IMG/VR virus record: IMGVR_UViG_3300028883_000003 | Location: 32,001-96,000 of that record | Length of the DNA stretch: 64,000 nucleotides | Source: a virus | Direction: 5' to 3' (one strand) | In this document: piece by piece, positions 1,152-41,858 of the stretch | Layout of the letters: every line of letters starts with the position of its first letter | Position numbering within the stretch: the first letter of the stretch is position 1 | Made by a program: the position numbers and the translations under genes | Notes under the pieces: model-generated | Told to the model about the DNA's origin: nothing | Seen by the model: only the letters and a program-made list of their open reading frames with translations | Databases searched by the model: none

Positions 1152-1568
1152 ATGAAGAAAACCTTAATCACCCTGTTTTTTGTAGTAGCCTTAATGGGGA
1201 CAGCTTTTGCCGAAGATGTAACTGTTGAATGGACTGCTGTTCATGAAGATGGGAATACTGGTGGTCCAGCTACTGGTTATGTTCTTTGCTATGGTCCAGA
1301 CAGTACAGCTATTATAAATTCGAGTGTAGTAGACGGTTTTGCTGTAGCAGATTCATTAACAACTATTGTGGAACAAGACAATGTACCCGGCAATGTAGGA
1401 GACACGCTGCAATACACGGTTAGTGGATTAGTTAGTGGAATTAAATATTACTTCACCATGAAGGCTTTTGATGATGTAGACAATTATTCTGATTTAGGGA
1501 ACATTGTCAGTCATGTTGTTGTTGATGTAATAAAGCCGGGTGTTGTGGACATTATTAAGTTGTATTAA
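1152..1568 (+). CDS. exported fibronectin type III-like protein
   Basis: Signal peptide MKKTLITLFFVVALMGTAFA; FN3-like pattern VEWTA...GYVLCYG...YTVSGLVSGIKYYFTMKAFD; AGGAG RBS. Confidence 0.7.
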   Translation: MKKTLITLFFVVALMGTAFAEDVTVEWTAVHEDGNTGGPATGYVLCYGPDSTAIINSSVVDGFAVADSLTTIVEQDNVPGNVGDTLQYTVSGLVSGIKYYFTMKAFDDVDNYSDLGNIVSHVVVDVIKPGVVDIIKLY

Positions 1569-1579
1569 AAGGAGTTAAT

Positions 1580-1750
1580 ATGGAAAAGCACTATGATGTT
1601 AAGTTAAATTCAGACAATAAGTTTGATATTTACGAAGTTAGTACTGGGGATGTTTTTTGTACGTGTGACACGGTGGACAAAGCTTCCCAAGTAGCTAGGG
1701 CTTTGGAATTGGCTTATGCAATGAAAATTGTAATGCAGTTAATATTTTAA
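1580..1750 (+). CDS. small hypothetical protein (56 aa, below ORF-track cutoff)
   Basis: AAGGAG RBS, ATG at 1580, TAA at 1748-1750 (MEKHYDVKLN...). Confidence 0.45.
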   Translation: MEKHYDVKLNSDNKFDIYEVSTGDVFCTCDTVDKASQVARALELAYAMKIVMQLIF

Positions 1751-1755
1751 CTAAT

Positions 1756-1828
1756 GGGGCCATCGTTTAATTGGTTAGGATGTGGGACTTTCATTCCCTC
1801 GATGTCGGTTCGATCCCGGCTGGCCCTA
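1756..1828 (+). tRNA. tRNA-Glu(TTC)
   Basis: Acceptor GGGGCCA/TGGCCCT, anticodon loop CTTTCAT, T-arm GTCGG-TTCGATC-CCGGC. Confidence 0.92.
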
Positions 1829-1856
1829 CTAAATTTGTAATAAATTTAGGTTGTTT

Positions 1857-1929
1857 GCCCCTGTAACTCAATTGGTAGAGTAGCTGACCTGTAATCAGCT
1901 TGTTCTAGGTTCGAGTCCTAGCGGGGGCT
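1857..1929 (+). tRNA. tRNA-Thr(TGT) with non-canonical C33
   Basis: Acceptor GCCCCTG/CGGGGGC, stem GCTGA/TCAGC closing loop CCTGTAA, T-arm CTAGG-TTCGAGT-CCTAG, short variable loop. Confidence 0.85.
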
Positions 1930-4633: not shown

Positions 4634-4640
4634 TAAAACT

Positions 4641-12515: not shown

Positions 12516-13040
12516 TTAAACCCTTCTTTCTATTGCAATTTGGTCACAAACACTCAAAAGCCACGCCTCATGAACAAGCTCAATAATATTGTATTCTTTA
12601 GATGGGACCCAAAAATTAAGACTACCTAGTTGTCGCAAAGGGTTGTTACTATTGAAACCCGTTAAGGTAACAGTATATATTCCATGCTCATTAGCTTTTT
12701 TACACCCATTAATAATGTTTGGTGAAGTACCACTGCTACTAATAAAAATACCAACAGTATTTTTTTCAGAATATAATTGTATTGCCTGTTCTACCCATTT
12801 ATCCCAACCATAGTCATTGGCTAAACAAGACATTAGTGAAACATCGTTGTATGTTTTCATGCAAACTCCGGCTACTTTGGTAAAGTCTTCAGCAACATGA
12901 CTGGCTATCGCCGCACTCCCGCCATTACCAACAATAAAAGCGGGTCTAGTTATGGTCTTTAAATTAGCAATAAGACTTTTTGTTTCTTCTTCTGGGTACA
13001 TTGATAATTTTTCAATTAAGTCATCATAAAACGTTTTCAT
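12516..13040 (-). CDS. gmhA: SIS-domain phosphoheptose isomerase (GmhA-like)
   Basis: GNGGSAAIASH, LANDYGW, ISSSGTSPNII, E..H motifs; start set at MKTFY (13040), ATGA overlap with the upstream gene. Confidence 0.85.
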   Translation of the reverse strand: MKTFYDDLIEKLSMYPEEETKSLIANLKTITRPAFIVGNGGSAAIASHVAEDFTKVAGVCMKTYNDVSLMSCLANDYGWDKWVEQAIQLYSEKNTVGIFISSSGTSPNIINGCKKANEHGIYTVTLTGFNSNNPLRQLGSLNFWVPSKEYNIIELVHEAWLLSVCDQIAIERRV

Positions 13041-14353
13041 AAAATTGCTTTTCCCATCTTTTTCATTACAAAAGGGGTTAACGCATCTTGGGTGCACAAG
13101 TGCTGTGTGTTAGCTGCCGCTGCTAACGATGCCAAAAATAAAACCTCTTCCGGTTTGTATTGCAAATAATAAGCTAAAGATGCAATAGTAAAAAATGCAT
13201 CTCCGGCACCAATAGAATCAACAATATTATTTACTGCTAGAGCCGGAAATTCCACGTAACAATCATTTTTGTCAAAATAAACACTTCCATATTTATGCAT
13301 TGTTAAAATAACGGCTTCAGTATTTAATTTTTGATATATAGTATTCATTAATTCTTTGTCAAATTTCTCTATTTGCCAGCCAAGTAATAATGATGCTTCT
13401 GTTCTGTCTAAACAAACTAATTTTGATTTATACTTGTTCCATTTATTAGCTTTATTATACCCAAAGTTAGATGAATTTGTTTGAACCATCAAATAAATAT
13501 TGTCCACCAATTCTTTGTTATCAAACAAACCGTGGCCAAAGTCGGCTATTAAAAGCAACTCGGTGTTAGATGATATCTCGTGCAGCATTTGTTTAAATAG
13601 TGCTTCGTCTATATTTATTTTATGTTTATATTTAATTTCCAAATGTTTTTGTCCGTTATGATAATCTAAAAACCTTTTTTTAATAACTGCATGCATTTTA
13701 TAATTAGGAAACATGTTATATTTTTTGCAAAAATTTTGTACATGTCTTAATACATAGTGTGCTCCACCAAGTTGTGTTATCTCATCTTCTTGTGTTGTAA
13801 AGCTGGGACAATATGATTTTGCCGATTGACCATCTAATATAACCTTTTGAAAAATATCAATAATTGGTTCTCCGATTATACCAACGTAAAGATTAGAACA
13901 ATCCTCAATAAACCTACGTATAACAGATTGATTTAATTCTATTTTTAGATTTAAAAATGGTCCGTTTTGATTTCTTAATTTGGTTGACGAATAAACCACA
14001 TCAGGATCTATGATAACCAAAGCACCACCAAACGATTCAACTTTTTCTTTTTCAATATCTAAAACTTTGTCCCCATTTAGATAATCAGAACCCTTAATAA
14101 GAAAATTAGGCTTGAATTTATCTATTGCTGGTAAACCAGTCTTGTCATTACAAATATACACTTCATCTACCCAAGGTAATAACTCTAACGTTTGTTTTCT
14201 AATATCTTGGGTAAATACTGGGGGTTCTGGTAAGTATGGGTCTGCCGTGATAACAACAACTAAATAATCACCATATTTTTTAGCCTCTTTTAAATGATAC
14301 AAATGGCCAGTGTGCAAAACGTCAAACTTGCCTAAACACATAACTGTTTTCAT
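13037..14353 (-). CDS. bifunctional nucleotidyltransferase + PfkB sugar kinase (HldE/RfaE-like, transferase domain first)
   Basis: GKFDVLHTGH (HxGH) and KGSDY at the N-terminus; DSIGAGDAF PfkB signature at the C-terminus. Confidence 0.85.
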   Translation of the reverse strand: MKTVMCLGKFDVLHTGHLYHLKEAKKYGDYLVVVITADPYLPEPPVFTQDIRKQTLELLPWVDEVYICNDKTGLPAIDKFKPNFLIKGSDYLNGDKVLDIEKEKVESFGGALVIIDPDVVYSSTKLRNQNGPFLNLKIELNQSVIRRFIEDCSNLYVGIIGEPIIDIFQKVILDGQSAKSYCPSFTTQEDEITQLGGAHYVLRHVQNFCKKYNMFPNYKMHAVIKKRFLDYHNGQKHLEIKYKHKINIDEALFKQMLHEISSNTELLLIADFGHGLFDNKELVDNIYLMVQTNSSNFGYNKANKWNKYKSKLVCLDRTEASLLLGWQIEKFDKELMNTIYQKLNTEAVILTMHKYGSVYFDKNDCYVEFPALAVNNIVDSIGAGDAFFTIASLAYYLQYKPEEVLFLASLAAAANTQHLCTQDALTPFVMKKMGKAIL

Positions 14354-18216: not shown

Positions 18217-18217
18217 T

Positions 18218-19306: not shown

Positions 19307-19662
19307 TAGTGTTCCCTTATTTCTATAGATGTGTTATCTTTAGGAAAATAAGCCATCCATTTTAAATTTTTATTTTTGTCAAAAGACTTTATGCTTCTAT
19401 ACAATGTGCTATCTTTTGGAGAAACTATCCATGCTAACTCAATATTTTCACCAATTAGTGTATCGCACTGATGAAATGTTGAATAAAAAATCCAAGTATC
19501 CACAGTATCCACCACAGGTTCTTGCCAATTTACAATTACCGTGTCCATAATTATTTCTTTACTAATTTTTATTGGTATGGCATTTGGAAAAAGCAAATTA
19601 GCCCCAACGACCAAAATAATAAGAATTGCTATAAATAAAGTAACACAATATTTGTCTTTCAT
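19306..19662 (-). CDS. membrane-anchored exported protein rich in D-T/S sequons
   Basis: N-terminal TM helix followed by DTV, DTV, DTL, DST. Confidence 0.55.
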   Translation of the reverse strand: MKDKYCVTLFIAILIILVVGANLLFPNAIPIKISKEIIMDTVIVNWQEPVVDTVDTWIFYSTFHQCDTLIGENIELAWIVSPKDSTLYRSIKSFDKNKNLKWMAYFPKDNTSIEIREH

Positions 19663-19716
19663 AAATTCTCCTATTTAATATTATTTTCCGCTATCCACTT
19701 GAAACTATGTAAATGT

Positions 19717-20528: not shown

Positions 20529-20582
20529 CTCCAGCTTTACGAAGTATCTTACGAAATCGTTTAGATGTCATAAAACGATAAG

Positions 20583-20879: not shown

Positions 20880-20893
20880 TTTTTACCTCTTTA

Positions 20894-29646: not shown

Positions 29647-29655
29647 GGATTTATT

Positions 29656-31797
29656 GTGGCTTTATACGGGAATCGAACCAGATATAAGACTGGAAAAAAA
29701 CATAAAACTATTATTCGTTCATCCAAGCCAGTAAAAAACGTTGTTGCTGATGTAGATAAAAATATAGCTAATGCTGTAGCTATTCATACAGTTGTTAATT
29801 CGCGTACTGCTACGTCTGTTTTGACAACAGTTAATGATTATCAAAATCCTGACCTAAACAACAGAACAACAGTTGTTAATTTGTCCAGACAGTTGCGTTC
29901 TATTGAGGGCATATGTGCTTCAGTAGCAGACCTGTTGGCAGATTTTGGTGTGACCAAAGGTGCCTATTATTCTGACAGCGAAGAATTAAAACTTATGTTA
30001 AACAAGTGGGCTAATTTTGTAAATGGTCCAATTGCTTTGTCCAAACAAAAAGGAGTGGTTTTTCCTGTTCCCGGAATAAGATCATTGTCACGTAAAATTT
30101 TTGATGATTATATTACGGATGGTGATGCTGTCTTTACTTTGTTTTGGAAAAATGGTGTGAAGATGGACCCTAATGACACAGAGTCTTATTTCATACCTGT
30201 GTCCATAAAAACATTAGACACCGCTTCTTTGACAATTGATCCTGATTTAGCTAGTCTTGGTGTTGAGCGAATTGAGTTAAAATTCAGCAACGACACTTTA
30301 AAGCGTATTAAAGAACCTACTACGGATGCCGATAAGTTTTTAAGGGATAGTTTGCCTAAAGAGTGGTTAAAATTTATCAATAGTGGTGAGTCAATTATTT
30401 TGGATGCAAACGTAACTTATCATTTAAAGCGTAATGGGAAAGATTGGAAGGCATGGGGAGAGCCTTTATTCTTAAAGGCATTTAGTGCTGTTGCAGCTAA
30501 ACGAAGATTACAAGCCGTAGACGATGCAACTATTGATGGTCTTATTAATCGTTTTACTGTTTTTAAGTTAGGTCTTGAAGATAAAGATAAAAATCCGGCT
30601 TATCACATTCCTTCTAATGCTCGTACTCAAGCACTAATTGAAATTTTAACTAGTTCAAAAAGAACTAATGCTATCGTTTGGCCGGGTCCAGATTTGGATA
30701 TTATGGATATTGGTCCAGACGGTAAAATTTTGGAGTTTGACCAAAAGTATAAACAAGCTGATATTGATATCTTAAGAGCCCTGCACGTATCTCCTCTTTT
30801 GATTGATGGAGGTTCTACTGGACAATCTGCCAGAGACTGGGCTGCTTTTGTGAGTACTGAAGTTGGACTTGATGCTATTCGCAATGAATTAGAGCAGACC
30901 TTTACACAAATCGGTAAAGAAATAGCATTGGCCAATAAAATGGATTATGAGCAGCTTTATTACAAATTTGATACCCAAATGTTGAAGGATGAAAAAGCCG
31001 TAAGAGACTTTGCATTAAAAGTTTTTGAGCTTGGTGGTTTATCTGTGGAAACATTTGTTCGCACCATGGGGTATGATTTTAACACCGAGAAAACACTCAA
31101 AGAACGAGAGCAGTCAAGTGGTGTTTCTGATTTGTTTGTTAATCCTAATGTTCCGGGGTTTACTGGAAAAACACCAGATGGCGGCGATGGTCGTCCGCCG
31201 GGGAGTACTGATGACGAACCAAGGGAAGATAAAGATAAGTCTGCTGCTTCTAACCCGTTGGATAATGTTACTGTTTTTTATGGGATGTACAAACGAACAT
31301 TTGATTCTGTTATAAAAAACGTTAACTATCACTTGGCCATTAACCAAAAAAACATGGCCACTATGACTCTTATAGCAGGCTTTAACCAATTTAAACTTTT
31401 GGTTGATTCACAATTAAACAATACATTTTTGAAATATTCTGGTGGTAATGTAACGGGGTATTTGGAAAAGTTATTGCAGTGGAATGAAAATTATATTACT
31501 CGTTTTTATCAACAGGCAGCAACGGCTTTAGAAACAAGTCAAGAAGATTTCAATTTGTTGGCTAAAAAAAGCGATGAGCGTATTTTGATGTATGCACAGG
31601 AAAGTTTTAGAAAGGCCAAGTGGGTTGGTTTGATGGCATTGGCTAAACTAGAAGGCAAAACCAAAGCTATTTGGTCTTGTGATAACCCGCAAAATATAAC
31701 ATGTGTTGAAAACAATGGAAAATCTTTTGATTTGGATATTTTGGTTGGCATGTTTCCAAGTCATCCTAATTGCAAGTGCACATTGGAGTTTATGTAA
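29656..31797 (+). CDS. portal protein with C-terminal gpF/SPP1 gp7-like head morphogenesis domain
   Basis: Follows TerL; portal-like helical body; G/P/D-rich linker; C-terminal C...HPNCKC motif. Confidence 0.7.
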   Translation: MALYGNRTRYKTGKKHKTIIRSSKPVKNVVADVDKNIANAVAIHTVVNSRTATSVLTTVNDYQNPDLNNRTTVVNLSRQLRSIEGICASVADLLADFGVTKGAYYSDSEELKLMLNKWANFVNGPIALSKQKGVVFPVPGIRSLSRKIFDDYITDGDAVFTLFWKNGVKMDPNDTESYFIPVSIKTLDTASLTIDPDLASLGVERIELKFSNDTLKRIKEPTTDADKFLRDSLPKEWLKFINSGESIILDANVTYHLKRNGKDWKAWGEPLFLKAFSAVAAKRRLQAVDDATIDGLINRFTVFKLGLEDKDKNPAYHIPSNARTQALIEILTSSKRTNAIVWPGPDLDIMDIGPDGKILEFDQKYKQADIDILRALHVSPLLIDGGSTGQSARDWAAFVSTEVGLDAIRNELEQTFTQIGKEIALANKMDYEQLYYKFDTQMLKDEKAVRDFALKVFELGGLSVETFVRTMGYDFNTEKTLKEREQSSGVSDLFVNPNVPGFTGKTPDGGDGRPPGSTDDEPREDKDKSAASNPLDNVTVFYGMYKRTFDSVIKNVNYHLAINQKNMATMTLIAGFNQFKLLVDSQLNNTFLKYSGGNVTGYLEKLLQWNENYITRFYQQAATALETSQEDFNLLAKKSDERILMYAQESFRKAKWVGLMALAKLEGKTKAIWSCDNPQNITCVENNGKSFDLDILVGMFPSHPNCKCTLEFM

Positions 31798-32554: not shown

Positions 32555-35500
32555 ATGCACAAACTAATTGTTTTGTCAGCAATGTTTTTGGCTTTATTGT
32601 CGTTGTTTTTAGCTGTACCATCTTTGGCTACAGTAAATGTTTCGTTGACAATTAGTCAAGCAGATGCTACATATTTACGAGCCATACCAATTCAGGACTC
32701 GGCAGGTCGAGGAGTTTCTGAAAATTGGGGGTTAGCCCTAAATGCCACCAAAGATACTTTAATTTGGGTAGACTTATCTGGTGCTGCTCTTGGCTCCAGC
32801 ATTTCTGCATCAGAGTTAGCTGATGAGGATTGGGGAGATGTCTCGATTTCCTCTGGCGTGGCTAGTGTTGAAGATTTAACAATTTCTGGCGAAACCGCTG
32901 GTGATATTTTACATTTTAATGGTTCTAATTGGGTACGTTTAGCCATTGGTACTGTTGGCCAAGTGTTAACTGTCAATAGTGGAGAAACTGCTCCAGAGTG
33001 GGATGCTGCTGGTGGTGGAATTGCCGATCTTGCTACGCTATTTGCTTATTTCCATCGAGATTACTTTGATACTACTTCGGATATTGTTGGTGATTCAATT
33101 ACGGTTTTATTGGCTGACTCTGCTGGTATTTCTTTGAAGGCTGTTCAAGATGCTAGTGGCAATACAATAACAACTACTTATGCCCCAGTTGCTACTCCTA
33201 CGTTTACTACTTCAATTGGAATTGGTTCGACAACCATAACTGAAGCTGAATTGGCTGCTTTGGATAGTGTTGCCAGTGTTGACGGGTTGGCTATAACTGG
33301 TCAGACAGCTGGTGACATTCTGTGTTTCTATGGTGGAGCTTGGAATTTAGTAAATGCTGGTTCGGCTGGTCAGGTTTTGGAGATGCAAACTGGCGACACG
33401 ACTGTTGGTTGGGGGACCGATGATGGTGCTGGTGCGGCCTCAATTGAAAACGATGTATATGGTTCTGGCTGGAACGATGATATTACAAATGGTGCTTCTC
33501 AAAATGCTATTTATGATTATTTACATCAAATGGACACAGATGATGATGGTGATATTGATAATTTAGATGGTACTTTTATTGATGCTGGTGGAACTCAAGC
33601 ATTAACAGGTAGCTGGGCTGCTGGTGATTTTAATATAACAGGTTTAAATAAGGTTGAAACTGATTCTATTCAGTTTACTAGCCACATGATTGTGGGAGCA
33701 ACGGCAATTACTCCGACTGAAGTTAGCTATTTATCTGGCGTTACGTCGGCTATTCAGACTCAACTTGATGGTCAGGATGAAATCACGGAGTTAGGTTCTG
33801 GAAACTGGAAGGTTTATTACTCCAATGGTTCAGGAGCAATTATAGAATTAGCACTTGGTACTAATGGGCAGGTTTTAACTTCCAATGGTACTACATCTGC
33901 TCCCACCTTCGAAACCCCTTCTGGTTCTGGTCTTACATATTTTACCGAAGGTGATGATAACGATACTTCAACATTTACAGCCACTGCCCCGAATACTGTT
34001 ATAGGTTTTGCCAGTTCAATAACTATGCAGGGAAACTCTGTTGATGGTGCTCAGCATATTACTGCGGACACTGTTTTTGCTGATGTCTATTTATCTACGG
34101 GTGATGTGTCTGGTAGTATTACACTTGAAGGAATTACTTCGGGTGGCTTTACCTTGGGAGTTCTCGATGTTGCTGGTAGTCTTGTTGATGTGTATCTTCC
34201 TACGGTAGATGGTACTCAAAACCAATTTTTGATGTCGGATTCCGGGGCCGGTACTGATAGTTTGGTGTGGGCAACAATAGATTTTTCATTTGTTAGTGGA
34301 GAGATTGCCGATACTCAGATTGCTGATGGTGCTGTAGATGGTGGTTCAGGTGGCGAGATTGCCGATCACACAATTGATGCTAATGATATTAAGTGGACTT
34401 CCACACCGGGTTCGGGAGAAGATGATTATCTTGTTTCTTACGACTATGCCAGTGAAAGTTTTACAGCCGTCGCAGGAGGAGCGGGTGAAATTAACACAGC
34501 CTCTAACCAAGGAGCTGGTTATAAATTATATGAACAAAAAACAACTTATGATCTTGAATTCAAAACCATTACAGCGGGTACTGGCATTTCTTTAGATACG
34601 GCCACTGCTAATCAGTTAAATATTTCGATTAGTTCAATTGATTCCACTTTGTTTAACCAAACTCAAACTGATGCCTATGTGAATTTATTAGTAAATGGTT
34701 ATATTGACACTACAACTTTGGACACTATTGAATATTCCCATAAAGCAATTGCTGATGCGAGTGGTAACACGATAACAACCACTTATGCTCCTATAGATAA
34801 CCCGACGTTTACTACCGCAATTACGATAGGTTCGGCTGGTATAAGTGAAACAGAGTTGGAGATTTTGGATGGTGCCACTGTTACAACTACGGAACTTAAT
34901 GTGCTTAGTGGCATTCCCGGAACCTTGACAGTTACCGAACTTGGGTATGTTGATGGTGTTACTTCATCAATACAAAATCAGATAAATGCAATTGCTGTGT
35001 TTTGGGACACTGTTACTAATGCTAATACTTTGCAAGCTACGGGTACTACTGATTCTGCATTTTTGCGAATAATAAATGATGGTGACTCTGTTACTAGATT
35101 TAGTGCTCCTACTGGGGCTAAGTTTAGTTTTGAGGGAGACGGAATTTGGACAAATATACCATATTTAAGTTCGGATACAGTTGCTGCGGCTGTGTTTGAT
35201 ATGACTGGTGGTAAGATACTTGATGGTTCTGACGATATACAAAGTTTTTCTGCTGGGGACTTAGAGGTTTTGAGCAATTCTTTATATATAAAACAGGATG
35301 CTGTTGATACAACCGAATTAAATATGGGGCTATCTGGAATCTTTACTGGGAGTATTTTATATAGTGGTTCATTAGAAATTCCTAATAGTGACAACCCTAC
35401 TACTGATGCATCCGGCGAACTTGCAGTTGACCAAAATGCTTCTGCTCTTGAGGTTTATGACAGTACACAAACAGTTTCTGTTTTAATACCGTTGTACAAC

Positions 35501-35854
35501 CCTATTCAAGCTGCAATTGCTTCTCCTGATTTACTAGAGGATACCATTACTATTTTTCAGGTTAATTCTTTATTATATCCGTATGGTATTGGTTTGTTGC
35601 AGGCAGAATTAATTGTTAATGATACTGGAACCGCTTATTCAATTCAGCTTGAAGAATGGACAGGAAAGCAACACAGAGCAAGAGCGGGATATATAGATAC
35701 ACTAACAACAACATCTGATTCTTCTTATACGAGTTCTATTTCGTTTAATGATGGTGACTTTGCTACGGGTAACCAAATTAGAGCAATAGTGCCATCTACC
35801 GAAGTTGACGAAATATACCTTTCTTTAGTATTCTTTGTCAAAGAGGGTGATTAA
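32555..35854 (+). CDS. exported 1099-aa fibre-like protein
   Basis: Signal peptide MHKLIVLSAMFLALLSLFLAVPSLA; repeated G..GQVL...W modules, VTS[AS]IQ.Q[LI] and TEL..L motifs typical of phage fibres; duplicated DASGNTITTTYAP. Confidence 0.7.
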   Translation: MHKLIVLSAMFLALLSLFLAVPSLATVNVSLTISQADATYLRAIPIQDSAGRGVSENWGLALNATKDTLIWVDLSGAALGSSISASELADEDWGDVSISSGVASVEDLTISGETAGDILHFNGSNWVRLAIGTVGQVLTVNSGETAPEWDAAGGGIADLATLFAYFHRDYFDTTSDIVGDSITVLLADSAGISLKAVQDASGNTITTTYAPVATPTFTTSIGIGSTTITEAELAALDSVASVDGLAITGQTAGDILCFYGGAWNLVNAGSAGQVLEMQTGDTTVGWGTDDGAGAASIENDVYGSGWNDDITNGASQNAIYDYLHQMDTDDDGDIDNLDGTFIDAGGTQALTGSWAAGDFNITGLNKVETDSIQFTSHMIVGATAITPTEVSYLSGVTSAIQTQLDGQDEITELGSGNWKVYYSNGSGAIIELALGTNGQVLTSNGTTSAPTFETPSGSGLTYFTEGDDNDTSTFTATAPNTVIGFASSITMQGNSVDGAQHITADTVFADVYLSTGDVSGSITLEGITSGGFTLGVLDVAGSLVDVYLPTVDGTQNQFLMSDSGAGTDSLVWATIDFSFVSGEIADTQIADGAVDGGSGGEIADHTIDANDIKWTSTPGSGEDDYLVSYDYASESFTAVAGGAGEINTASNQGAGYKLYEQKTTYDLEFKTITAGTGISLDTATANQLNISISSIDSTLFNQTQTDAYVNLLVNGYIDTTTLDTIEYSHKAIADASGNTITTTYAPIDNPTFTTAITIGSAGISETELEILDGATVTTTELNVLSGIPGTLTVTELGYVDGVTSSIQNQINAIAVFWDTVTNANTLQATGTTDSAFLRIINDGDSVTRFSAPTGAKFSFEGDGIWTNIPYLSSDTVAAAVFDMTGGKILDGSDDIQSFSAGDLEVLSNSLYIKQDAVDTTELNMGLSGIFTGSILYSGSLEIPNSDNPTTDASGELAVDQNASALEVYDSTQTVSVLIPLYNPIQAAIASPDLLEDTITIFQVNSLLYPYGIGLLQAELIVNDTGTAYSIQLEEWTGKQHRARAGYIDTLTTTSDSSYTSSISFNDGDFATGNQIRAIVPSTEVDEIYLSLVFFVKEGD

Positions 35855-37119
35855 TGCGGTATATATTATATTTATTGTTATTGTGTTTGCTTGTACCAAC
35901 TATTGACGGTGCGGATTGGTCTTTTACTATTTCAGGGGATGATACCGCCGACGTTGACGATGCTGATTTATGGAGCACGTCATCTACGTTACTTCGTGGT
36001 GATACTTCTACAACGATGTGGGTAGGGACCAATAGTGGGGAACGTTGCGGTTGGGTTCATTTCGTAAATTTAGATGATAGTCTTGCCACATATCCGGGAG
36101 TTGTTGATTCTATCCTTTTGATTGCTGCTATTGGTGCAGGCGAGCCACTGATTGACACTACCGGGGATGACGATTCTCTCTGGTTACTTGTGTCCCCTGT
36201 CAGAAAAATCCCGGTTGAGGCAGAGGTTTCGTGGGACACTTGTAACAGCGGGGAGGAATGGACAACTGCTGGTGCTAAAGATATTTCGGATGCGTATCAG
36301 ACGGCCTTAGATACGACAGGCCCTATTGTGTTTGAAGACTATTCATCTCTTGACACTGTGCATTTATGGGTGGACCCACAAAGCTTACTGAACAGCAATA
36401 ACGGCTGGATTATTCGCCCACTTTGCGAAGGTGATGGTAATATTCAGGTGGTTTTTGCAACAAGTGAGGATGGTAATCCGGGGTTTTCTTTGGTTGTTTA
36501 CGGGCATACAGAGGCAATAGTAAGTGCAACAACAGATACAGTTTCTTATAGCTATAATGATGCTGGTTTTACAACAGTGTGGAGTACGACTGGTACGACT
36601 GGCAGGCTTGGAGAAACTGGGATGGGTGATTGGTATAAGTCCTGTATAAGGTTTACAAGTATTAATGTTGACACAAATGCCACGGTTGATTCGGCTTTTA
36701 TATATGTTACCGGTGGTGGTTTAGGGTCGGGATTTGGGAGTATATATGCCAGAATTTATGCTGTTAATGTAGGCGATGCTGATCCATTTACTACAGCGGT
36801 ATTTTATGATAGTTTGCTTACTAATCATAAAACGTCTGCATATGTTAATTGGACTACCGACTTCAATTGGTCACCGACTGGGTCAAATAAAAGTCCTGAT
36901 ATTAAAACTGTTGTACAAGAAGTATTTGATAGGCCTGATTGGGTTATGAGCAATGCTCTTGCTTTTTTGTTTGCTGCTAATGGGACTACTACTACCAACG
37001 GCGAATATGTTGTTTACAAAACTTATGATGGTAGTGCGTCAACGGCACCATCGTTAGTTTTGTACTTAACTAACCCAGTAACTGGACGTTCTACAATAAT
37101 TCGAATTAATGCGGGCTAA
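35854..37119 (+). CDS. exported protein with two DNRLRE/CBM96-like domains
   Basis: Signal peptide MRYILYLLLLCLLVPTIDG; AEVSW...WTTAG, NNGWII, ATVDSAFIY, PSLVLY patterns. Confidence 0.6.
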   Translation: MRYILYLLLLCLLVPTIDGADWSFTISGDDTADVDDADLWSTSSTLLRGDTSTTMWVGTNSGERCGWVHFVNLDDSLATYPGVVDSILLIAAIGAGEPLIDTTGDDDSLWLLVSPVRKIPVEAEVSWDTCNSGEEWTTAGAKDISDAYQTALDTTGPIVFEDYSSLDTVHLWVDPQSLLNSNNGWIIRPLCEGDGNIQVVFATSEDGNPGFSLVVYGHTEAIVSATTDTVSYSYNDAGFTTVWSTTGTTGRLGETGMGDWYKSCIRFTSINVDTNATVDSAFIYVTGGGLGSGFGSIYARIYAVNVGDADPFTTAVFYDSLLTNHKTSAYVNWTTDFNWSPTGSNKSPDIKTVVQEVFDRPDWVMSNALAFLFAANGTTTTNGEYVVYKTYDGSASTAPSLVLYLTNPVTGRSTIIRINAG

Positions 37120-37120
37120 T

Positions 37121-38581
37121 ATGAAACTTTTTTTTATTTTGTTTTTTATGCTGTTGTTTCCTTCGTTGCTATTTGCAGAAGTTGACACGGTTTATGATAC
37201 AATTTATACTTCCACAGATGACGCCCAATTTTTTACTAGTTTGGTAACGGATAGCAATTACTTACGAGCCGGTCAAGCTTCTAGCGGGTATTTTTTTAAC
37301 GCTTTGTTACGTTTTGACAATTTACCTATGAAACAAGGTGAGTATCTTGTTAGTGTTGATTTATACTTGTTTGATTTGGCGTCAGACACAACCATTGGAG
37401 AGCCAAGTTTAATAATTAAGTTAGAAGACACAGGCAATTCAACAACTTTTAGTGATTCGGCTGATTATGTTAGTAGGCATTGGACAACTGATAGTGTAAA
37501 TTGGACTGTTACAAGGCCGGAGGGGCTTTATGGTTGGGAATTTGACCCTCGTTACAACAATTATACTGCTGTAACGTCTTTAGCTCCTTTGTTTCAGACT
37601 ATTGTGGATAGAGCAGATTTTGATTCTAGTCAGGCAATAACAGTTCGAATTTTTGATAGGCCTTTATATGAGGATGCTTATACTACTTTTTATTCCTTTG
37701 ATGGTGATTCTGCAAAAGCCCCATATTTAGTTATCGTTAGGGTAATACCAAGCACTGATAGTTGTAAAACATACATATGTATGTGTGACACAACCTCAAT
37801 AAGAGACACCTATATACCAGATGGTGAAACTGTTTCTGATACAATGCGGGTTATTTTTTATGTTGCATGCACTCCCGATAGTGTGCCAAAAGTGTCAGAT
37901 TCAATTATTGCAGCAGCAGTGGACTCTCTAAATGGTAGTCGACTCTTAGGAAGAGCAAAAATTTATATAAAGTATGATATTTTACATATTTATTCTTCTT
38001 ATTTTACAAACCACGTAATAAATTCTATTGATGCTGAAGCGTTTAAGGGGCTGTATAGTGTACATTTAGATTCTGCGGCAGCTCACTATTCTGTGGATAT
38101 AAATGTTGGGGTTTACACGTTTGGTACGTACCCGTGGGACGCGGCTTCTAATCCTTACGATGGCACTTATGGAGCGTGGAACGGTGCAACCCCACAAAGA
38201 ATTTCACATGAGCTTTTGCATACGTTTGGGCTTATGCATACAAACATTGGTACTTTTAGTGAAGTGCTTGGCCCACCTATAGATGATGATTTTTTATGTG
38301 GCCCATGTTGGGAGTACCCTGTTGAGTATGGACAAAGTGATTCTGTTAGAAATGAGATTGGGGATAAATGCTCAGATACTGATCCTAGCCCAAAAGTAAC
38401 ACCGGGATTTGTGTGTGGGAGTGATGCATATGATAGTACAAAGTCTGATTCTTTGATTATGCGATCTGTACCACACTCTACGCTTGGATTGGCAATTACA
38501 GCACAACAGGCTGGTAGAGTACGATGTCATACAAGGTATTGGTTTCCGGGTTGGTATATTTTTATGGGAGAAACACAATAA
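37121..38581 (+). CDS. exported DNRLRE-like domain + metzincin (M43 pappalysin-like) zinc protease
   Basis: Signal peptide MKLFFILFFMLLFPSLLFA; HELLHTFGLMH zinc motif; GDKCSDTDP; Met-turn-like LIMRS. Confidence 0.78.
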   Translation: MKLFFILFFMLLFPSLLFAEVDTVYDTIYTSTDDAQFFTSLVTDSNYLRAGQASSGYFFNALLRFDNLPMKQGEYLVSVDLYLFDLASDTTIGEPSLIIKLEDTGNSTTFSDSADYVSRHWTTDSVNWTVTRPEGLYGWEFDPRYNNYTAVTSLAPLFQTIVDRADFDSSQAITVRIFDRPLYEDAYTTFYSFDGDSAKAPYLVIVRVIPSTDSCKTYICMCDTTSIRDTYIPDGETVSDTMRVIFYVACTPDSVPKVSDSIIAAAVDSLNGSRLLGRAKIYIKYDILHIYSSYFTNHVINSIDAEAFKGLYSVHLDSAAAHYSVDINVGVYTFGTYPWDAASNPYDGTYGAWNGATPQRISHELLHTFGLMHTNIGTFSEVLGPPIDDDFLCGPCWEYPVEYGQSDSVRNEIGDKCSDTDPSPKVTPGFVCGSDAYDSTKSDSLIMRSVPHSTLGLAITAQQAGRVRCHTRYWFPGWYIFMGETQ

Positions 38582-38582
38582 A

Positions 38583-39362
38583 ATGAACAAAAGCTTTTTT
38601 GTGTGTTTATTGTTTTTTTTGATAATTTTTACAGAATTTTCACTTGGTTATGATTCTGCAATAGTTTCGGTTAGTAACGACGTGTCTTTAATGGCCAGAG
38701 CCGATGCTAATTATACATTCGGTTTGGGGTCTGTATTAAACGTTTATGAAGATGGTATAGGTGCTAATAGAATGACATCTTTAATAAATATTAATCCAGA
38801 TTCAATACCTAGTGGTGTTATTCGTCAAGTCAAATTATTTTTGTATAGTTCTACAAATCAGTTAACAACTTTGTACCCAAGGCTTGATAGTGTAACTGTG
38901 GAGGCCCATCGAGTAAAAGAGAATTGGGATTATTATGACACGATTGGCACACTTGCTTCAGGATATAATTTTTCTCCTAGTTGGCATTATAGAGACACGA
39001 CTGATATCACAGACACTTTTCCCGTATTGGGTGGAACTCCTTGGTCTGACACCGCTGCTTTTTACCCAACGTCTTCGTATATATTACCAGAAGGCTCAGT
39101 AGTGGTGGATTCTTCTTCTGACGCAGAATTTGAACTTACATTGTCCCCTCATACAATGACATATTATAGAGATAATCCAGATTTTTGTAATGGGTGGGTA
39201 CTTACAGCACAGAGCACAGGTAACCAAGGGGAACATTGGAAGAGGCAGTTTTATAGCTCTAAATCGCAAGAACCCTCTAAGCAACCTTATTATTTAATTG
39301 TATATGATGGGTCTGCCCCAAAATTCAAAAATGTTGATGTGTCAGGGGACATAGAATTTTAA
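38583..39362 (+). CDS. exported DNRLRE-like protein
   Basis: Start reset to MNKSFFVCLLFFLIIFTEFSLG; VKLFLY, AHRVKENW, W...GG..W, NGWVL, FYSSK...QPYYLIVY. Confidence 0.65.
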   Translation: MNKSFFVCLLFFLIIFTEFSLGYDSAIVSVSNDVSLMARADANYTFGLGSVLNVYEDGIGANRMTSLININPDSIPSGVIRQVKLFLYSSTNQLTTLYPRLDSVTVEAHRVKENWDYYDTIGTLASGYNFSPSWHYRDTTDITDTFPVLGGTPWSDTAAFYPTSSYILPEGSVVVDSSSDAEFELTLSPHTMTYYRDNPDFCNGWVLTAQSTGNQGEHWKRQFYSSKSQEPSKQPYYLIVYDGSAPKFKNVDVSGDIEF

Positions 39363-39393
39363 TATGGCGTACAATTTTAATGGAGTAGAATAA

Positions 39394-41262
39394 ATGAATA
39401 GGTTAGTTTTTGTTTTAGTTTTTGTTTTGTTGTTGTGTGTGAGTCCAGTTGTGGCAAGGAATTTAGTGACACTTACTTCTGGCGATTTACCATACAGTGC
39501 CAGTTCTAACGATAGTATTCAGATTGATGGCAATCACATCACATCCAATGGCACAGCCATAAACGTGGAGAGTGTGAATAATGTTTATTTTGATTTTGGC
39601 ACAGACACACTTGAGTACGGGGCTAATGGTGGCAATAACGAATATGGGTTGCGTTTTCAAAACGCCTATAACTGTACTGTTAATGGTGGTACGATTATGC
39701 GTGCCGTTGGACCGGCTTCGACAGACGGTGAGAGTAATCACACTATTTATATGCACGGAACTTGTTATGGGCTAACCTTCAACGACGTAGACCTTATCAC
39801 CGACGGATACAACGGACACTGCGTTCTTGGTTATGGTCCTCACTATTCAATAAATTTTGATGGTGGAACATGGCGAAGTGATTCTAGAAGTTTTTCCGAT
39901 AGACATAATTATACCGGGGCTGTTGCATGGTTGGGAACACCCGGTAGCGGAGGTGATTACGCATATTGGATTCATGGTGTTTCTATTGTCGATGGACCAG
40001 CACAGGGAATAATAACCATAAGTGGCCGCACCATTATTGATAGCTGTGATATTAGCACCGATCATATAAATACTGGACCAACCGGCTCCGACGGGAACCA
40101 ATATCTTATTCTATTAACTGGTTGTACCAACCCAACATCCGTCACTAATTGTACACTTGTCAGCGGCAGTGATAGGGGAGGGAGTCGGGGAGTTCTTATA
40201 GAAAATTCAAACGGTACAGCAGATGAAAGAATAGTAGTACGTAACAATTATTTTGACATACACAACGGTCCTGACAGCGAAGGGGGGATGGGTGTTTATG
40301 GTTCGTGTAGAATAATTAGATTGCGGACGCTTCATTCCGGTTCTCAAAGATGGTCGAGTTATATAGATATTCGTAAAAATACTGTATATGGGACATCAGA
40401 TTTTAATGAGAGCACAACACATATAGGCCGAGAGGTGATTGGCATTGACTGTAACATGGCGTCTCAAGGATTAGGTGGGGCACACCATATTAGGGTTGAT
40501 AGCAATAAGGTTTATATGAGAACTTTAGGGACCAATGTGTATAACAAGGCAGCCGCTCTATACTCATATGTTAATCCCGATACAACGGGGATGTCTTGTT
40601 CTTACAATGAGTTTTATGGTTCAGATGTTGTTGTCCGACTTGCTGATGGGGGGGAAGATGGTAACTCTGGCAACGGGATTGGCTGTACTGAATTTTTTAT
40701 GCATAACAATATTTTAGGTTTTCTTGATACAACGGGCAATGACTCCCTTACGTATGACACTGGATACACTACGTGGAGTGTTGCCGTTGGTAACGGTGAC
40801 GCGACCCCAATTGCTGTCGACAACGTATCACGGGACGCAACATATCTCAATGGAGCATCTGACACTGATATTTTATTTAGGGTTGCCCCCGGCCCCACCG
40901 ATATAGCTATGCAAAAGACCGTTGGTGTCTATGTTAAAGATTCCGATGCTGACCCTATTGTTGGAGCTACTGTTCGGCTTATAGATGACGGCGGTTCTGT
41001 GGTTTGGAGTAATATAACCGACGTAAACGGCTACGTGGCTGAGGCTGCTACTTATTTATATGATTCCGTTGGTACTTCGGTTGATAGTAATTACAACCCC
41101 TTTACACTTAGGGCGATCTACGGCACCGACTCCACTGATGTTTCCCGTATTGTGGCATGTAATAATGGGGATACAACAGTAGTATTGGATATTGAAGGGG
41201 AGCCAAATATTGTTCCAGTTAATATTTCAGGTAAAGTGGTAATTAAAGGAAAGAAAAAATGA
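39394..41262 (+). CDS. exported right-handed beta-helix (pectin lyase-like) protein with C-terminal carboxypeptidase-regulatory-like Ig domain
   Basis: Signal peptide MNRLVFVLVFVLLLCVSPVVA; Asn/Gly ladder repeats (VRNNYF, IRKNTV, VDSNKV, MHNNIL); VKDSDADPIVGATVRL...TDVNG. Confidence 0.65.
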   Translation: MNRLVFVLVFVLLLCVSPVVARNLVTLTSGDLPYSASSNDSIQIDGNHITSNGTAINVESVNNVYFDFGTDTLEYGANGGNNEYGLRFQNAYNCTVNGGTIMRAVGPASTDGESNHTIYMHGTCYGLTFNDVDLITDGYNGHCVLGYGPHYSINFDGGTWRSDSRSFSDRHNYTGAVAWLGTPGSGGDYAYWIHGVSIVDGPAQGIITISGRTIIDSCDISTDHINTGPTGSDGNQYLILLTGCTNPTSVTNCTLVSGSDRGGSRGVLIENSNGTADERIVVRNNYFDIHNGPDSEGGMGVYGSCRIIRLRTLHSGSQRWSSYIDIRKNTVYGTSDFNESTTHIGREVIGIDCNMASQGLGGAHHIRVDSNKVYMRTLGTNVYNKAAALYSYVNPDTTGMSCSYNEFYGSDVVVRLADGGEDGNSGNGIGCTEFFMHNNILGFLDTTGNDSLTYDTGYTTWSVAVGNGDATPIAVDNVSRDATYLNGASDTDILFRVAPGPTDIAMQKTVGVYVKDSDADPIVGATVRLIDDGGSVVWSNITDVNGYVAEAATYLYDSVGTSVDSNYNPFTLRAIYGTDSTDVSRIVACNNGDTTVVLDIEGEPNIVPVNISGKVVIKGKKK

Positions 41263-41276
41263 AAGAAAGAACACTA

Positions 41277-41858
41277 ATGAAAACATTATTTATCTTTTTG
41301 TGTTTGTCACTTTTACCAGTTATGCTAAATGCTGATGCCACATATAGTTATGGTGGTGTTTTTTATTACAATGGCAATCTGACTACGCCAGATTCTTTGC
41401 ATGTGTATGTGTCTTATCAGCCGTCTGGAGATACTGTCAGTTATGTATCCCTTCCTGATTCGGCAGTATGGGATACAACTATAGATACAACTGATGTTAC
41501 TGACAATTATGCAATATTAAGTTACCATATATATTTTGGGACTAATTTGTTAATTACTCAAGAAACTATTAATTTACGATTAGATACAAGTAGTATTTCT
41601 CCACAAGTATACGCAATGACAGGTGATTCTGTAAAGACAGCGATAGAAGCACAAGGTAGTCAATTATGGGGCTTATCAGTTTTTTGGGGTACGTTGGATA
41701 GTTCACTTATGCTGATGTACCCACTTGATGGTACTACCCCAAAGGACAGTGTTCAAATTACAGACAGTTCTGGTACAGTTTTGATGTCTATAATTTATAA
41801 GCACAGTAATACAAATACAGTATTAGACTCAACTATTGTTTATCATAGGGTTCCATAA
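41277..41858 (+). CDS. exported D-S/T-rich hypothetical protein
   Basis: Signal peptide MKTLFIFLCLSLLPVMLNA; 8 sequons by hand count. Confidence 0.6.
   Translation: MKTLFIFLCLSLLPVMLNADATYSYGGVFYYNGNLTTPDSLHVYVSYQPSGDTVSYVSLPDSAVWDTTIDTTDVTDNYAILSYHIYFGTNLLITQETINLRLDTSSISPQVYAMTGDSVKTAIEAQGSQLWGLSVFWGTLDSSLMLMYPLDGTTPKDSVQITDSSGTVLMSIIYKHSNTNTVLDSTIVYHRVP

What the first reader, a model, noticed from the sequence alone, without database searches (positions are those of the whole stretch)
1152..41858. Bacteroidota/FCB O-glycosylation sequon D-(S/T)-(A/I/L/V/M/T) is strongly enriched only in exported proteins
Hand counts from the translations: about 22, 10, 15, 6, 8 and 8 sequons in the six cassette proteins (about 69 in ~3100 aa, about 1 per 45 aa; about 70% of D-S/T sites have a permitted +2 residue). 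The exported FN3 protein at 1152 has 3, the membrane-anchored protein at 19306 has 4 and the beta-barrel at 6195 has 1. Cytoplasmic or virion controls have far fewer: TMP about 5/1599, tail tube 1/519, tail tip about 7/1356, PolA 2/621. Established: Bacteroidota have a general periplasmic O-glycosylation system that modifies this motif on exported proteins. Inference: the host is FCB-group and the phage has evolved its exported proteins as glycoproteins, possibly a glycan shield or receptor mimic.
Basis: partly seen in the sequence, partly recalled or inferred. Interest (0 to 1): 0.85.

Follow-up and report, generated by a model that had tools for sequence, protein, structure and literature searches.

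The report
Exported phage proteins packed with glyco-sequons
A complete 118-kb marine-sediment phage carries six secreted proteins holding three times the chance number of the sugar-attachment motif known only from Bacteroidota, and selection maintains those motifs, yet the phage's own gene-expression signals do not look like those of a Bacteroidota phage.

Summary
The six cassette proteins (32555-41858) carry 22, 10, 15, 6, 8 and 8 D-[ST]-[AILVMT] motifs, 69 against 22.6 expected from composition (Poisson 3e-15).

The signal is motif-specific. Only Asp is enriched at -1, Glu, Asn and the reversed motif are not, and the +2 residue set matches the published one. It follows export, and selection maintains it. 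In the one close relative, sequon Asp is conserved 43/47 against 59/123 for other Asp.

Homologues with signal peptides are 2.1x enriched and those without are 1.07x. Three related phages hold non-exported proteins in the same slot, and four of those five proteins show no enrichment.

The host inference is only partly supported. This phage uses Shine-Dalgarno sites (50% of genes, against 3-23% in five Bacteroidia phages). It lacks the TAnnTTTG promoter enrichment, and none of its 8 predicted signal-peptide cleavage sites exposes Gln. An SD-using FCB lineage outside Bacteroidia and Chlorobia would fit all of this, but the host is unidentified.

Glycosylation itself is inferred. Protein 1 is tail-fibre-like and protein 3 has a metzincin motif.

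The scan has noted exported, sequon-rich phage fibres before on other DNA (44 notes, at least 38 genomes). I found no published report.

The parts
32555..35854 (+). Cassette protein 1 (1099 aa). Sec signal peptide, repeated units of about 55 aa, C-terminal jelly-roll domain (residues ~915-1099). Tail-fibre-like. 22 sequons against 9.8 expected.
   Evidence: The C-terminal domain model has pLDDT about 90 in its core. Foldseek matches phage collagen-like, tail-fibre and Mtd_N proteins (E about 1e-6) and the phage KHP40 cement trimer (E 2e-4).
35854..37119 (+). Cassette protein 2 (421 aa). Signal peptide, no known family. 10 sequons against 3.5 expected; all 10 are at conserved positions in the relative.
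37109..38581 (+). Cassette protein 3 (490 aa). Signal peptide. Invariant HELLHTFGLMH at residues 367-377 (metzincin HExxHxxGxxH). 15 sequons against 3.1 expected (z = 7).
   Evidence: (weak hit P0003 carries Peptidase_M43 + PKD)
38583..39362 (+). Cassette protein 4 (259 aa from Met34 of the ORF that opens at 38484). Signal peptide. Weak DNRLRE/CBM96-type domain. 6 sequons against 1.3 expected.
   Evidence: (the orthologue starts at the equivalent Met)
39394..41262 (+). Cassette protein 5 (622 aa). Signal peptide. Weak bMG3/CarboxypepD_reg-like beta-sandwich at residues 510-553. 8 sequons against 3.4 expected.
41259..41858 (+). Cassette protein 6 (199 aa). Signal peptide. 90% identical to its orthologue. 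8 sequons against 1.6 expected.
19306..19662 (-). 118-aa protein with an N-terminal membrane anchor, at the upstream end of the sugar operon. 4 sequons against 0.43 expected (p = 0.0005).
1152..1568 (+). 138-aa exported FN3-domain protein. 3 sequons against 0.9 expected.
27835..31797 (+). Large terminase (27835-29646) and portal (29656-31797), immediately upstream of the cassette. Both at expectation for the sequon.
42487..42906 (+). Endolysin, single-domain, 139 aa, two ORFs downstream of the cassette.
   Evidence: phrog_465, E 5e-40
42903..44384 (+). Cytoplasmic GT2 glycosyltransferase fused to TPR repeats. Candidate protein or peptide glycosyltransferase. Also present in relatives that lack the cassette.
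   Evidence: (weak SunS-like match)
12516..24215 (-). Sugar cluster: SIS (GmhA-like), cytidylyltransferase+PfkB (HldE-like, reversed domain order), epimerase, TIM barrel, FAD/GLF-like, GT1, methyltransferases, GT9+GT1 fusion. Conserved in relatives with or without the cassette.

Best explanation
The six-gene cassette encodes Sec-exported, very acidic, lysine-poor proteins. One is tail-fibre-like with a jelly-roll tip domain, one carries a metzincin zinc-binding motif, and one resembles a carbohydrate-binding module.

Their many D-S/T-hydrophobic tripeptides are kept by selection as acceptor sites for a host-encoded, periplasmic, sequon-directed O-glycosylation system of the type described in Bacteroidota. 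After Sec export and signal-peptide cleavage, the host would attach its O-glycan about once every 43 residues, giving the phage heavily glycan-coated extracytoplasmic proteins.

The phage encodes no polytopic membrane protein that could act as a flippase or oligosaccharyltransferase, so it must rely on the host's.

The host is probably not a member of class Bacteroidia. It is an SD-using lineage without the Q-rule, possibly another FCB lineage of marine sediment.

Shown: the enrichment, its specificity, its link to export and its conservation. Inferred: glycosylation itself, the source of the transferase, the host, and the role of the proteins (virion appendage added after or during lysis, or secreted enzymes and binders).
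For: 1. The enrichment is 3x and motif-specific, with Asp only at -1 and a +2 spectrum of T, V, A, L, I, S, as in glycoproteomes (review PMC12871550).
2. Purifying selection. Against an orthologous cassette that is 41-62% identical in five of six pairs, sequon Asp is conserved 43/47 against 59/123 for other Asp (p = 6e-8). The motif is retained at 34/46 sites against 30/95 for control tri-motifs (p = 2e-6). The relative itself has 55 sequons against 13.7 expected.
3. The enrichment follows export, not fold. Among the top 150 remote homologues of protein 1, the 57 with signal peptides have 846 against 405 expected, and the 81 without have 469 against 439.
4. It recurs in three unrelated phage contigs: SP proteins 34/8.5, 62/15.5 and 75/19.8, while the other genes sit at expectation.
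5. Three syntenic relatives hold non-exported proteins in the same slot: 7/8.6, 6/5.4, 0/2.8 and 3/7.6, with one at 13/5.3.
6. Positive control: membrane-anchored lysis-module proteins of Bacteroides phages B40-8 (5 against 0.8) and crAss001 (4 against 0.3).
7. Negative control: E. coli exported beta-rich proteins, 12 against 9.6.
8. No ORF in the phage has more than 3 predicted TM segments.
Against: - No glycan has been observed, so glycosylation is inferred from sequence statistics alone.
- The system is described only in Bacteroidota, yet SD usage, promoter motif and Q-rule all argue against a Bacteroidia host. The explanation therefore needs either an undescribed host range for the system or an atypical phage.
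- A cultured Bacteroidia phage with exported virion proteins (phi18:3 gp085-087) is sequon-depleted (3 against 9.6). Export into a glycosylating periplasm does not by itself produce enrichment.
- Surface exposure of the sequons could not be tested.
- The comparative test rests on one close relative.
Confidence: 0.6

Rival explanations
1. The host is an ordinary Bacteroidia bacterium. The phage simply departs from its host's usual translation, promoter and signal-peptide habits.
For: - The sequon is known only from Bacteroidota.
- 21 of the SP-bearing homologues of protein 1 expose Gln as Bacteroidetes proteins do, and they are equally sequon-rich (2.06x).
- crAss001 shows some SD usage (0.23 against 0.12 random).
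- The phage encodes its own sigma-like factor, which could explain missing host-type promoters for later genes.
- Earlier notes of this scan attribute similar fibres to Bacteroidota phages.
Against: - SD core upstream of 50% of 111 genes (p = 5e-35), against 0.03-0.23 in five Bacteroidia phages.
- No phage bS21 that could remodel the ribosome.
- TAnnTTTG is enriched 3-4x upstream of genes in all five Bacteroidia phages but not here (5 against 3.5).
- 0/8 Gln at +1 here and 0/5 in the relative. In Bacteroidetes, 332 of 334 species exceed 48%, and phi18:3 shows 3/3.
Confidence: 0.12
2. The phage glycosylates these proteins itself in the cytoplasm before Sec export. It would use its ADP-heptose pathway with the GT9-GT1 enzyme, or the GT2-TPR enzyme, in the manner of autotransporter heptosylation (Aah/AIDA-I, TibC/TibA) or SunS-type peptide glycosylation.
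For: - The phage encodes SIS, HldE-like and epimerase enzymes and a GT9+GT1 fusion.
- A GT2-TPR protein sits one gene beyond the cassette's neighbours, with a weak SunS-family resemblance.
- A sequon-rich membrane-anchored protein heads the sugar operon.
- Cytoplasmic heptosylation followed by Sec export is an established route (own knowledge).
Against: - The sugar cluster occurs in relatives whose slot proteins have no signal peptide and mostly no sequon enrichment, and the GT2-TPR gene in at least one of them (L019).
- The same link between export and sequon is seen in unrelated phage contigs and in about 50 homologues.
- The motif is exactly the Bacteroidota sequon, which no BAHT or SunS enzyme is known to use (own knowledge).
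- Non-exported phage proteins show no enrichment, although a cytoplasmic enzyme could reach them.
Confidence: 0.1
3. The tripeptide has a function unrelated to glycans in extracytoplasmic beta-rich proteins, for example a turn or capping motif, calcium binding in seawater, or processing sites for the cassette's own metzincin.
For: - The proteins are unusually rich in Asp, Ser and Thr and poor in Lys.
- Asp conservation would also fit metal binding.
- Ag43 of E. coli shows a mild excess (9 against 4.6).
- One non-exported slot protein in a relative has 13 against 5.3.
Against: - Homologues sharing the same domains but lacking signal peptides are at 1.07x.
- The flanks of the 69 sites share no wider pattern.
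- Glu does not substitute (0.69x), and aromatic or charged +2 residues are depleted exactly as in the glycosylation sequon.
- E. coli exported controls are at 1.25x overall.
Confidence: 0.12
4. Fossil sequons: the cassette was recently acquired from a Bacteroidota phage, and the motifs are no longer used in the present host.
For: - The cassette has higher GC (0.39-0.41) than its surroundings (about 0.35).
- It occupies a variable cargo slot.
- Q-rule-type homologues exist.
Against: - The sequons are conserved well above background between two phages whose cassette proteins have diverged to 41-62% identity.
- There are 13 gains as well as 13 losses, so density is actively maintained.
- The signal peptides carry no Gln relic.
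- Small exported proteins elsewhere in the genome are also enriched (15 against 6.4).
Confidence: 0.05

Closest known systems
Substrates of the general protein O-glycosylation system of Bacteroidota (review PMC12871550; glycoproteomes of Tannerella, Porphyromonas, Flavobacterium)
   Same: The same three-residue sequon, with strict Asp at -1, Ser slightly preferred over Thr, and hydrophobic, Thr or Ser at +2. Restricted to non-cytoplasmic proteins. Site density is comparable to heavily glycosylated surface proteins.
   Different: The proteins are phage-encoded. The density (1 per 43 aa across six proteins) is extreme. The phage's expression signals and signal-peptide cleavage sites do not match Bacteroidia. 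No glycan has been shown.
Cellulophaga phage phi18:3 gp085-gp087 (NC_021794)
   Same: Consecutive phage late proteins with classical Sec signal peptides. The record annotates them as virion proteins found by MS/MS, which is a precedent for SP-bearing proteins ending up in particles.
   Different: Their cleavage sites expose Gln (3/3), the phage has little SD usage, and the proteins are sequon-depleted (3 against 9.6). They are not homologous to the cassette proteins (no BLAST match for the jelly-roll domain among deposited phages).
Signal-peptide genes of Porphyromonas gingivalis phages that obey the Q-rule (PMC10367356)
   Same: Phage genes adapted to the host's Sec/SPI export pathway, proposed to modify the cell envelope.
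   Different: Those follow the Q-rule, and that paper does not mention glycosylation at all (0 occurrences).
Mycobacteriophage virion glycosylation by phage-encoded glycosyltransferases (own knowledge; listed)
   Same: Phage proteins coated with glycans. The phage carries glycosyltransferase genes in or near the structural module.
   Different: That modification is cytoplasmic, placed on capsid and tail-tube C-termini by phage enzymes, with no sequon and no export.
Autotransporter heptosylation (Aah/AIDA-I, TibC/TibA; own knowledge)
   Same: ADP-heptose supply plus a GT9-like transferase. Substrates cross the inner membrane through Sec after modification.
   Different: Different acceptor sites. 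Here the heptose cluster occurs in relatives without the exported cassette.

Membership tests
Substrate of Bacteroidota-type general O-glycosylation | Presence of the D-(S/T)-(A/I/L/V/M/T) sequon above chance | tested here: met
   69 against 22.6 expected, p = 3e-15
Substrate of Bacteroidota-type general O-glycosylation | Asp at -1 is not replaceable by Glu; +2 is hydrophobic, Thr or Ser | tested here: met
   E-[ST]-permitted 0.69x. D-[ST]-aromatic 0.82x and D-[ST]-charged/polar 0.70x. +2 spectrum T19 V16 A12 L11 I10 S8
Substrate of Bacteroidota-type general O-glycosylation | Non-cytoplasmic location (signal peptide or membrane anchor) | tested here: met
   All six have n-h-c type signal peptides by a hydrophobicity heuristic and by inspection. 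No dedicated predictor was available.
Substrate of Bacteroidota-type general O-glycosylation | Host belongs to Bacteroidota | tested here: inconclusive
   Host unidentified. Three Bacteroidia markers are not met. SD-using FCB classes exist.
Substrate of Bacteroidota-type general O-glycosylation | O-glycan actually attached to the sequon Ser/Thr | not testable with these tools
   Needs glycoproteomics
Phage of class Bacteroidia | Little or no Shine-Dalgarno usage | tested here: not met
   0.50 here against 0.03-0.23 in five Bacteroidia phages and 0.62-0.64 in two other phages. Literature: PMC3155529.
Phage of class Bacteroidia | TAnnTTTG -7 promoter element enriched upstream of genes | tested here: not met
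   5 against 3.5 here. All five controls are enriched: 9/2.2, 6/1.7, 8/2.1, 8/1.9 and 3/1.1.
Phage of class Bacteroidia | Gln at +1 of signal peptidase I sites (Q-rule) | tested here: not met
   0/8 here and 0/5 in the relative, with cleavage sites predicted by eye. phi18:3 shows 3/3. Bacteroidetes mean 71%.
Phage tail fibre / receptor-binding protein (protein 1) | Fibre-type tip domain and repeats shared with phage fibre proteins | tested here: met
   Jelly-roll C-terminal domain matches phage collagen-like, tail-fibre and Mtd_N proteins. 3,867 remote homologues, and the contexts examined are phage contigs.
Phage tail fibre / receptor-binding protein (protein 1) | Present in the virion | not testable with these tools
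   Needs virion proteomics. A signal peptide is atypical for fibres, but phi18:3 is a precedent.
Metzincin metallopeptidase, M43-like (protein 3) | HExxHxxGxxH zinc-binding motif | tested here: met
   HELLHTFGLMH at residues 367-377, invariant in the orthologue
Metzincin metallopeptidase, M43-like (protein 3) | Significant match to the family profile or fold | tested here: not met
   No Pfam, PHROG or PDB-sequence match. The only link is a 27%-identical hit that carries Peptidase_M43. The model failed.
BAHT-type protein heptosylation system | The transferase and heptose pathway co-occur with the substrate | tested here: not met
   The cluster is present in relatives L018-L020 that lack the exported cassette

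The most novel reading that the evidence does not exclude
Sequon-directed O-glycosylation at D-S/T-hydrophobic is not confined to Bacteroidota as currently described. It also operates in SD-using sediment lineages that lack the Q-rule, possibly other FCB phyla. Several unrelated phage lineages exploit it by routing fibre-like proteins, a protease and binding modules through the periplasm, so that they acquire a dense host glycan coat before release or attachment to the particle.
Probability: 0.35. Interest if true: 0.8.

Novelty: new variant of a known kind. Interest (0 to 1): 0.62.

Why it matters
If the motifs are used, a tailed phage has proteins that mature outside the cytoplasm and are coated with the host's own glycan. 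That could hide them from host proteases or glycan-reading defences, mimic the host surface, or stabilise them in sediment pore water.

It would also make phage genomes a sequence-only reporter of which bacterial lineages possess this glycosylation system. The transferase of that system is still undiscovered (PMC12871550). Here the reporter points outside class Bacteroidia.

Comparing host genomes that do and do not impose sequon enrichment on their phages could narrow the search for the missing oligosaccharyltransferase.

Tried and rejected
- AlphaFold2 of protein 3 from a two-sequence alignment failed (mean pLDDT 31), so sequons could not be mapped onto a surface.
- In the successful C-terminal domain model, one sequon lies in the low-confidence N-terminal stretch, one in a loop, one at a strand start and one within a strand. 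This is not informative.
- No relatives of cassette proteins 2 or 6 were found in IMG/VR or JGI metagenome contigs.
- The jelly-roll domain has no match among deposited phages.
- PDB sequence searches for proteins 1 and 3 found nothing.
- There were no Pfam or PHROG families for the cassette beyond weak hits, and no NCBIfam sorting signal (T9SS, PEP-CTERM, LPXTG) that could mark the host.
- No phage bS21.
- TerL, PolA and the 519-aa protein have no close cultured relatives.
- Named homologues of the HldE-like enzyme appear only at 30-35% identity and are taxonomically scattered.
- One distant relative's portal lies in a MAG labelled Candidatus Dojkabacteria. It is a single bin label and I did not use it.
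- The PglB N-glycosylation sequon [DE]xNx[ST] is only 8 against 3.9, so I rejected it as the main signal.
- Sequencing runs: one DNA holder (a marine sediment metagenome, probably the source) and no RNA holder listed.
- Atlas neighbours scored below 0.9 and I treated them as leads only.

Full report
**Setting.** The window is bases 32,001-96,000 of a complete 118,180-bp virus record with 127-bp direct terminal repeats and 35% GC. The only sequencing run that holds it is a marine sediment metagenome. Its large terminase is only about 25% identical to those of cultured phages. PolA and the 519-aa protein have no close cultured relatives either. The cassette (32555-41858, + strand) follows the terminase (27835-29646), the portal (29656-31797) and two small ORFs. 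After it come a 138-aa ORF, the endolysin (42487-42906) and a GT2-TPR glycosyltransferase (42903-44384).

Every count in the finding was reproduced.
- The six cassette proteins have 22, 10, 15, 6, 8 and 8 sequons, 69 in total.
- The FN3 protein has 3, the membrane-anchored protein at 19306 has 4, and the protein at 6195 has 1.
- The tape measure has 5/1599, PolA 2/621, the 519-aa protein 1 and the 1356-aa protein 7.

Residue shuffles give per-ORF z-scores of 2.7 to 7.0. Pooled over the mature proteins, 69 are observed against 22.6 expected (Poisson 3e-15), one per 43 aa. Each flank contributes on its own. Of 282 [ST]-permitted sites, 69 are preceded by Asp where 8.9% is expected (p = 8e-15). 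Of 97 D-[ST] sites, 69 are followed by a permitted residue where 40.5% is expected (p = 1e-9).

**The signal is motif-specific.** Among the twenty residues at -1, only Asp is enriched (3.07x). Glu is at 0.69x and Asn at 0.87x, the reversed motif is at 0.98x, and D-[ST] followed by a non-permitted residue is at 0.87x. In an unbiased scan of all dipeptides, DS ranks first and DT third, just behind GE. The +2 spectrum (T19, V16, A12, L11, I10, S8) matches the order reported from glycoproteomes, which includes Ser (PMC12871550). The 69 sites share no wider sequence context, so they are not copies of one domain motif.

**Selection maintains the motifs.** Only one close relative of the cassette exists in the collections searched: Logan contigs from two SRA runs, with a syntenic cassette.
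- The relative's cassette proteins carry 55 sequons against 13.7 expected, while its neighbouring non-exported genes are near expectation.
- In the five pairs that are 41-62% identical, sequon Asp is conserved 43/47 against 59/123 for other Asp (Fisher 6e-8).
- The sequon Ser/Thr is kept as Ser or Thr 38/47 against 208/349 elsewhere (p = 0.006).
- The whole motif is retained at 34/46 aligned positions against 30/95 for seven control tri-motifs (p = 2e-6).
- There are 13 losses and 13 gains, so density is maintained and not merely inherited.

**The enrichment follows export, not fold.**
- Across the whole genome, ORFs with an SP-like N-terminus have 84 sequons against 29 expected, and all others have 84 against 78. 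Outside the cassette, SP-like ORFs still have 15 against 6.4 (p = 0.0025).
- Protein 1 has 3,867 remote homologues. They match a repeated unit of about 55 aa and a C-terminal domain of about 170 aa.
- Among the best 150, the 57 with signal peptides have 846 against 405 expected (2.09x). The 81 with a Met start and no signal peptide have 469 against 439 (1.07x).
- The three homologues whose contexts I fetched lie in phage contigs of 46%, 59% and 49% GC. Their SP-bearing large proteins have 34/8.5, 62/15.5 and 75/19.8, and their other genes 10/7.9, 5/4.6 and 6/5.9.

**A natural experiment in the phage's own family.** About 40 phages share the portal at 46-78% identity. Three relatives on long contigs have the same sugar cluster and gene order. 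In the slot after the portal they carry large proteins that have no signal peptide and are not homologous to the cassette. Four of the five are not sequon-rich (7/8.6, 6/5.4, 0/2.8, 3/7.6), and one stands at 13/5.3.

**Controls.**
- Positive: the membrane-anchored lysis-module proteins of Bacteroides phages B40-8 and crAss001 have 5 against 0.8 and 4 against 0.3.
- Negative: exported beta-rich and periplasmic proteins of E. coli K-12 (Ag43, part of YeeJ, LdtA, DacD) total 12 against 9.6.

**What the proteins are.** None matches Pfam, PHROGs or PDB sequences at a meaningful level.
- Protein 1: the C-terminal domain folds confidently (pLDDT about 90 in the core) as a jelly-roll sandwich. Its best matches are phage collagen-like, tail-fibre and Mtd_N-containing proteins and a trimeric phage cement protein. 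Its atlas neighbours are all viral, including a 'tail fiber-like' cluster, but the scores are below 0.9.
- Protein 3: it has an invariant HELLHTFGLMH, the metzincin zinc-binding signature. Its one distant hit carries Peptidase_M43 and PKD domains.
- Protein 4: it weakly resembles a DNRLRE (CBM96-type) domain.
- All six are very acidic and lysine-poor (Lys 1.8% against 7.8% elsewhere).

**Do such proteins reach the virion?** This cannot be decided here. Its gp085-087 have classical signal peptides, and the record annotates them as virion proteins from MS/MS. Signal-peptide proteins in particles therefore have a precedent. Those three proteins are, however, sequon-depleted (3 against 9.6).

**The host.** I calibrated each marker on known phages.
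- Shine-Dalgarno usage. An SD core at -20 to -5 precedes 50% of 111 genes here (7% by chance, p = 5e-35) and 58% in the relative. The values are 0.11, 0.23, 0.05, 0.03 and 0.10 in five Bacteroidia phages (two Bacteroides, plus Flavobacterium, Cellulophaga and Polaribacter) and 0.64 and 0.62 in Clostridium and Aeromonas phages. Bacteroidetes and Chlorobi are reported to lack SD (PMC3155529). The phage encodes no bS21.
- Promoter motif. TAnnTTTG is enriched upstream of genes in all five Bacteroidia phages but not here (5 against 3.5).
- Q-rule. None of the 8 predicted signal-peptidase sites here, nor the 5 in the relative, exposes Gln. In Bacteroidetes, 332 of 334 species exceed 48%, with a mean of 71% (PMC5837995). 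phi18:3 shows 3 of 3, and Porphyromonas phages also follow the rule (PMC10367356).

The three other phage contigs with sequon-rich exported proteins also use SD (0.46-0.50). This includes one where 4 of 5 predicted signal-peptide cleavage sites expose Gln. Published SD usage by class is 51% for Calditrichae, 37% for Fibrobacteria, 32% for Ignavibacteria and 13% for Chlorobia (PMC10783764), and Ignavibacterium has a Q-value of 77%. SD-using FCB lineages therefore exist and would reconcile the data, but nothing here identifies the host. The searches of named genomes found nothing.

**Rival: the phage glycosylates the proteins itself.** The phage encodes a GmhA-like SIS protein, an HldE-like enzyme with reversed domain order, an epimerase, several glycosyltransferases including a GT9-GT1 fusion and the GT2-TPR enzyme. 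The sugar cluster is conserved in relatives that lack the exported cassette, and the GT2-TPR gene is present in at least one of them, L019. The link between export and sequon also recurs in unrelated phages. I therefore rate this rival low. The phage has no polytopic membrane protein that could be a flippase or transferase.

**Novelty.** Full-text searches found no report of phage proteins carrying this sequon. The 2025 review calls the system unique to Bacteroidota and its transferase undiscovered. Within this scan the pattern has been noted before on other DNA (44 notes in at least 38 genomes), always with Bacteroidota assumed as host. What is particular here:
- a six-gene exported cassette that includes a putative protease and a binding module, not only fibres;
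- direct evidence of selection on the sites;
- a family-internal contrast with non-exported slot proteins;
- calibrated evidence that the host is not Bacteroidia-like.

**Verdict.** Glycosylation acceptor sites are the best explanation (about 0.6). A Bacteroidia host is unlikely (about 0.1-0.15). Whether the host is in the FCB group remains open.

Noticed in passing
window 42903-44384 (+): A cytoplasmic GT2 glycosyltransferase fused to TPR repeats sits inside the structural module, right after the endolysin. Its nearest curated family is the SunS peptide S-glycosyltransferases, far below cut-off, and it matches PHROG 13126. It is 67% identical in the close relative, and a homologous TPR-bearing ORF occupies the same position in L019. 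It may glycosylate a virion protein.
   Followed up: partly
window 12516-24215 (-): A nucleotide-heptose pathway in which the HldE-like enzyme has its domains in reversed order (cytidylyltransferase N-terminal, PfkB kinase C-terminal), plus a 708-aa GT9+GT1 fusion. Homologues at 50-70% identity occur only on unnamed metagenome contigs, and the two I fetched are syntenic relatives of this phage. The GT9-GT1 architecture is mainly viral in the protein atlas.
   Followed up: partly
L018 13384-19425; L019 13898-20513; L020 12562-22253: In this phage family the locus after the portal is a variable cargo slot. Relatives carry unrelated giant proteins there (2,013 aa with a BNR_4 hit; two of 1,046 aa; more than 2,000 aa) in place of the six-gene exported cassette.
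   Followed up: partly
NC_021794 (L025 1892-7584): Cellulophaga phage phi18:3 gp085-087, annotated as virion proteins by MS/MS, have Sec signal peptides with Gln at +1. They are depleted in the O-glycosylation sequon (3 against 9.6 expected), the opposite of the pattern here.
   Followed up: partly
NC_011222 15801-16406; MH675552 25066-25695: The membrane-anchored proteins in the lysis modules of Bacteroides phages B40-8 and crAss001 (gp27) are sequon-rich (5 against 0.8; 4 against 0.3). This suggests host O-glycosylation of phage lysis-module proteins.
   Followed up: no
window 38484-39362 (+): The longest ORF overlaps the end of the previous gene by about 100 bases. The real start is probably Met34 (about 38583), which gives a normal signal peptide and matches the orthologue's start.
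   Followed up: yes
genome 36640-36714 (window 4640-4714): Nine tRNA genes in the genome, seven of them in the first 5 kb of the window. They include a tRNA-Ile with anticodon UAU, which is uncommon in bacteria.
   Followed up: no
window 7772-8416 (-): A phage-encoded sigma-factor-like protein (Sigma70 region 2 only, E 2e-5), conserved in relatives L016 and L017. It could explain the absence of recognisable host-type promoters before later genes.
   Followed up: no
genome 29340-29654 (just upstream of the window) and genome 25061-25459: A 104-aa membrane-anchored ORF has 3 sequons against 0.22 expected. A 132-aa ORF without a signal peptide also has 3 against 0.37.
   Followed up: no
P0306 (94-kb contig): The portal of a distant relative (47% identity) is deposited in an NCBI MAG labelled Candidatus Dojkabacteria. 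It is probably a mis-binned phage contig, and at most a weak host lead.
   Followed up: no
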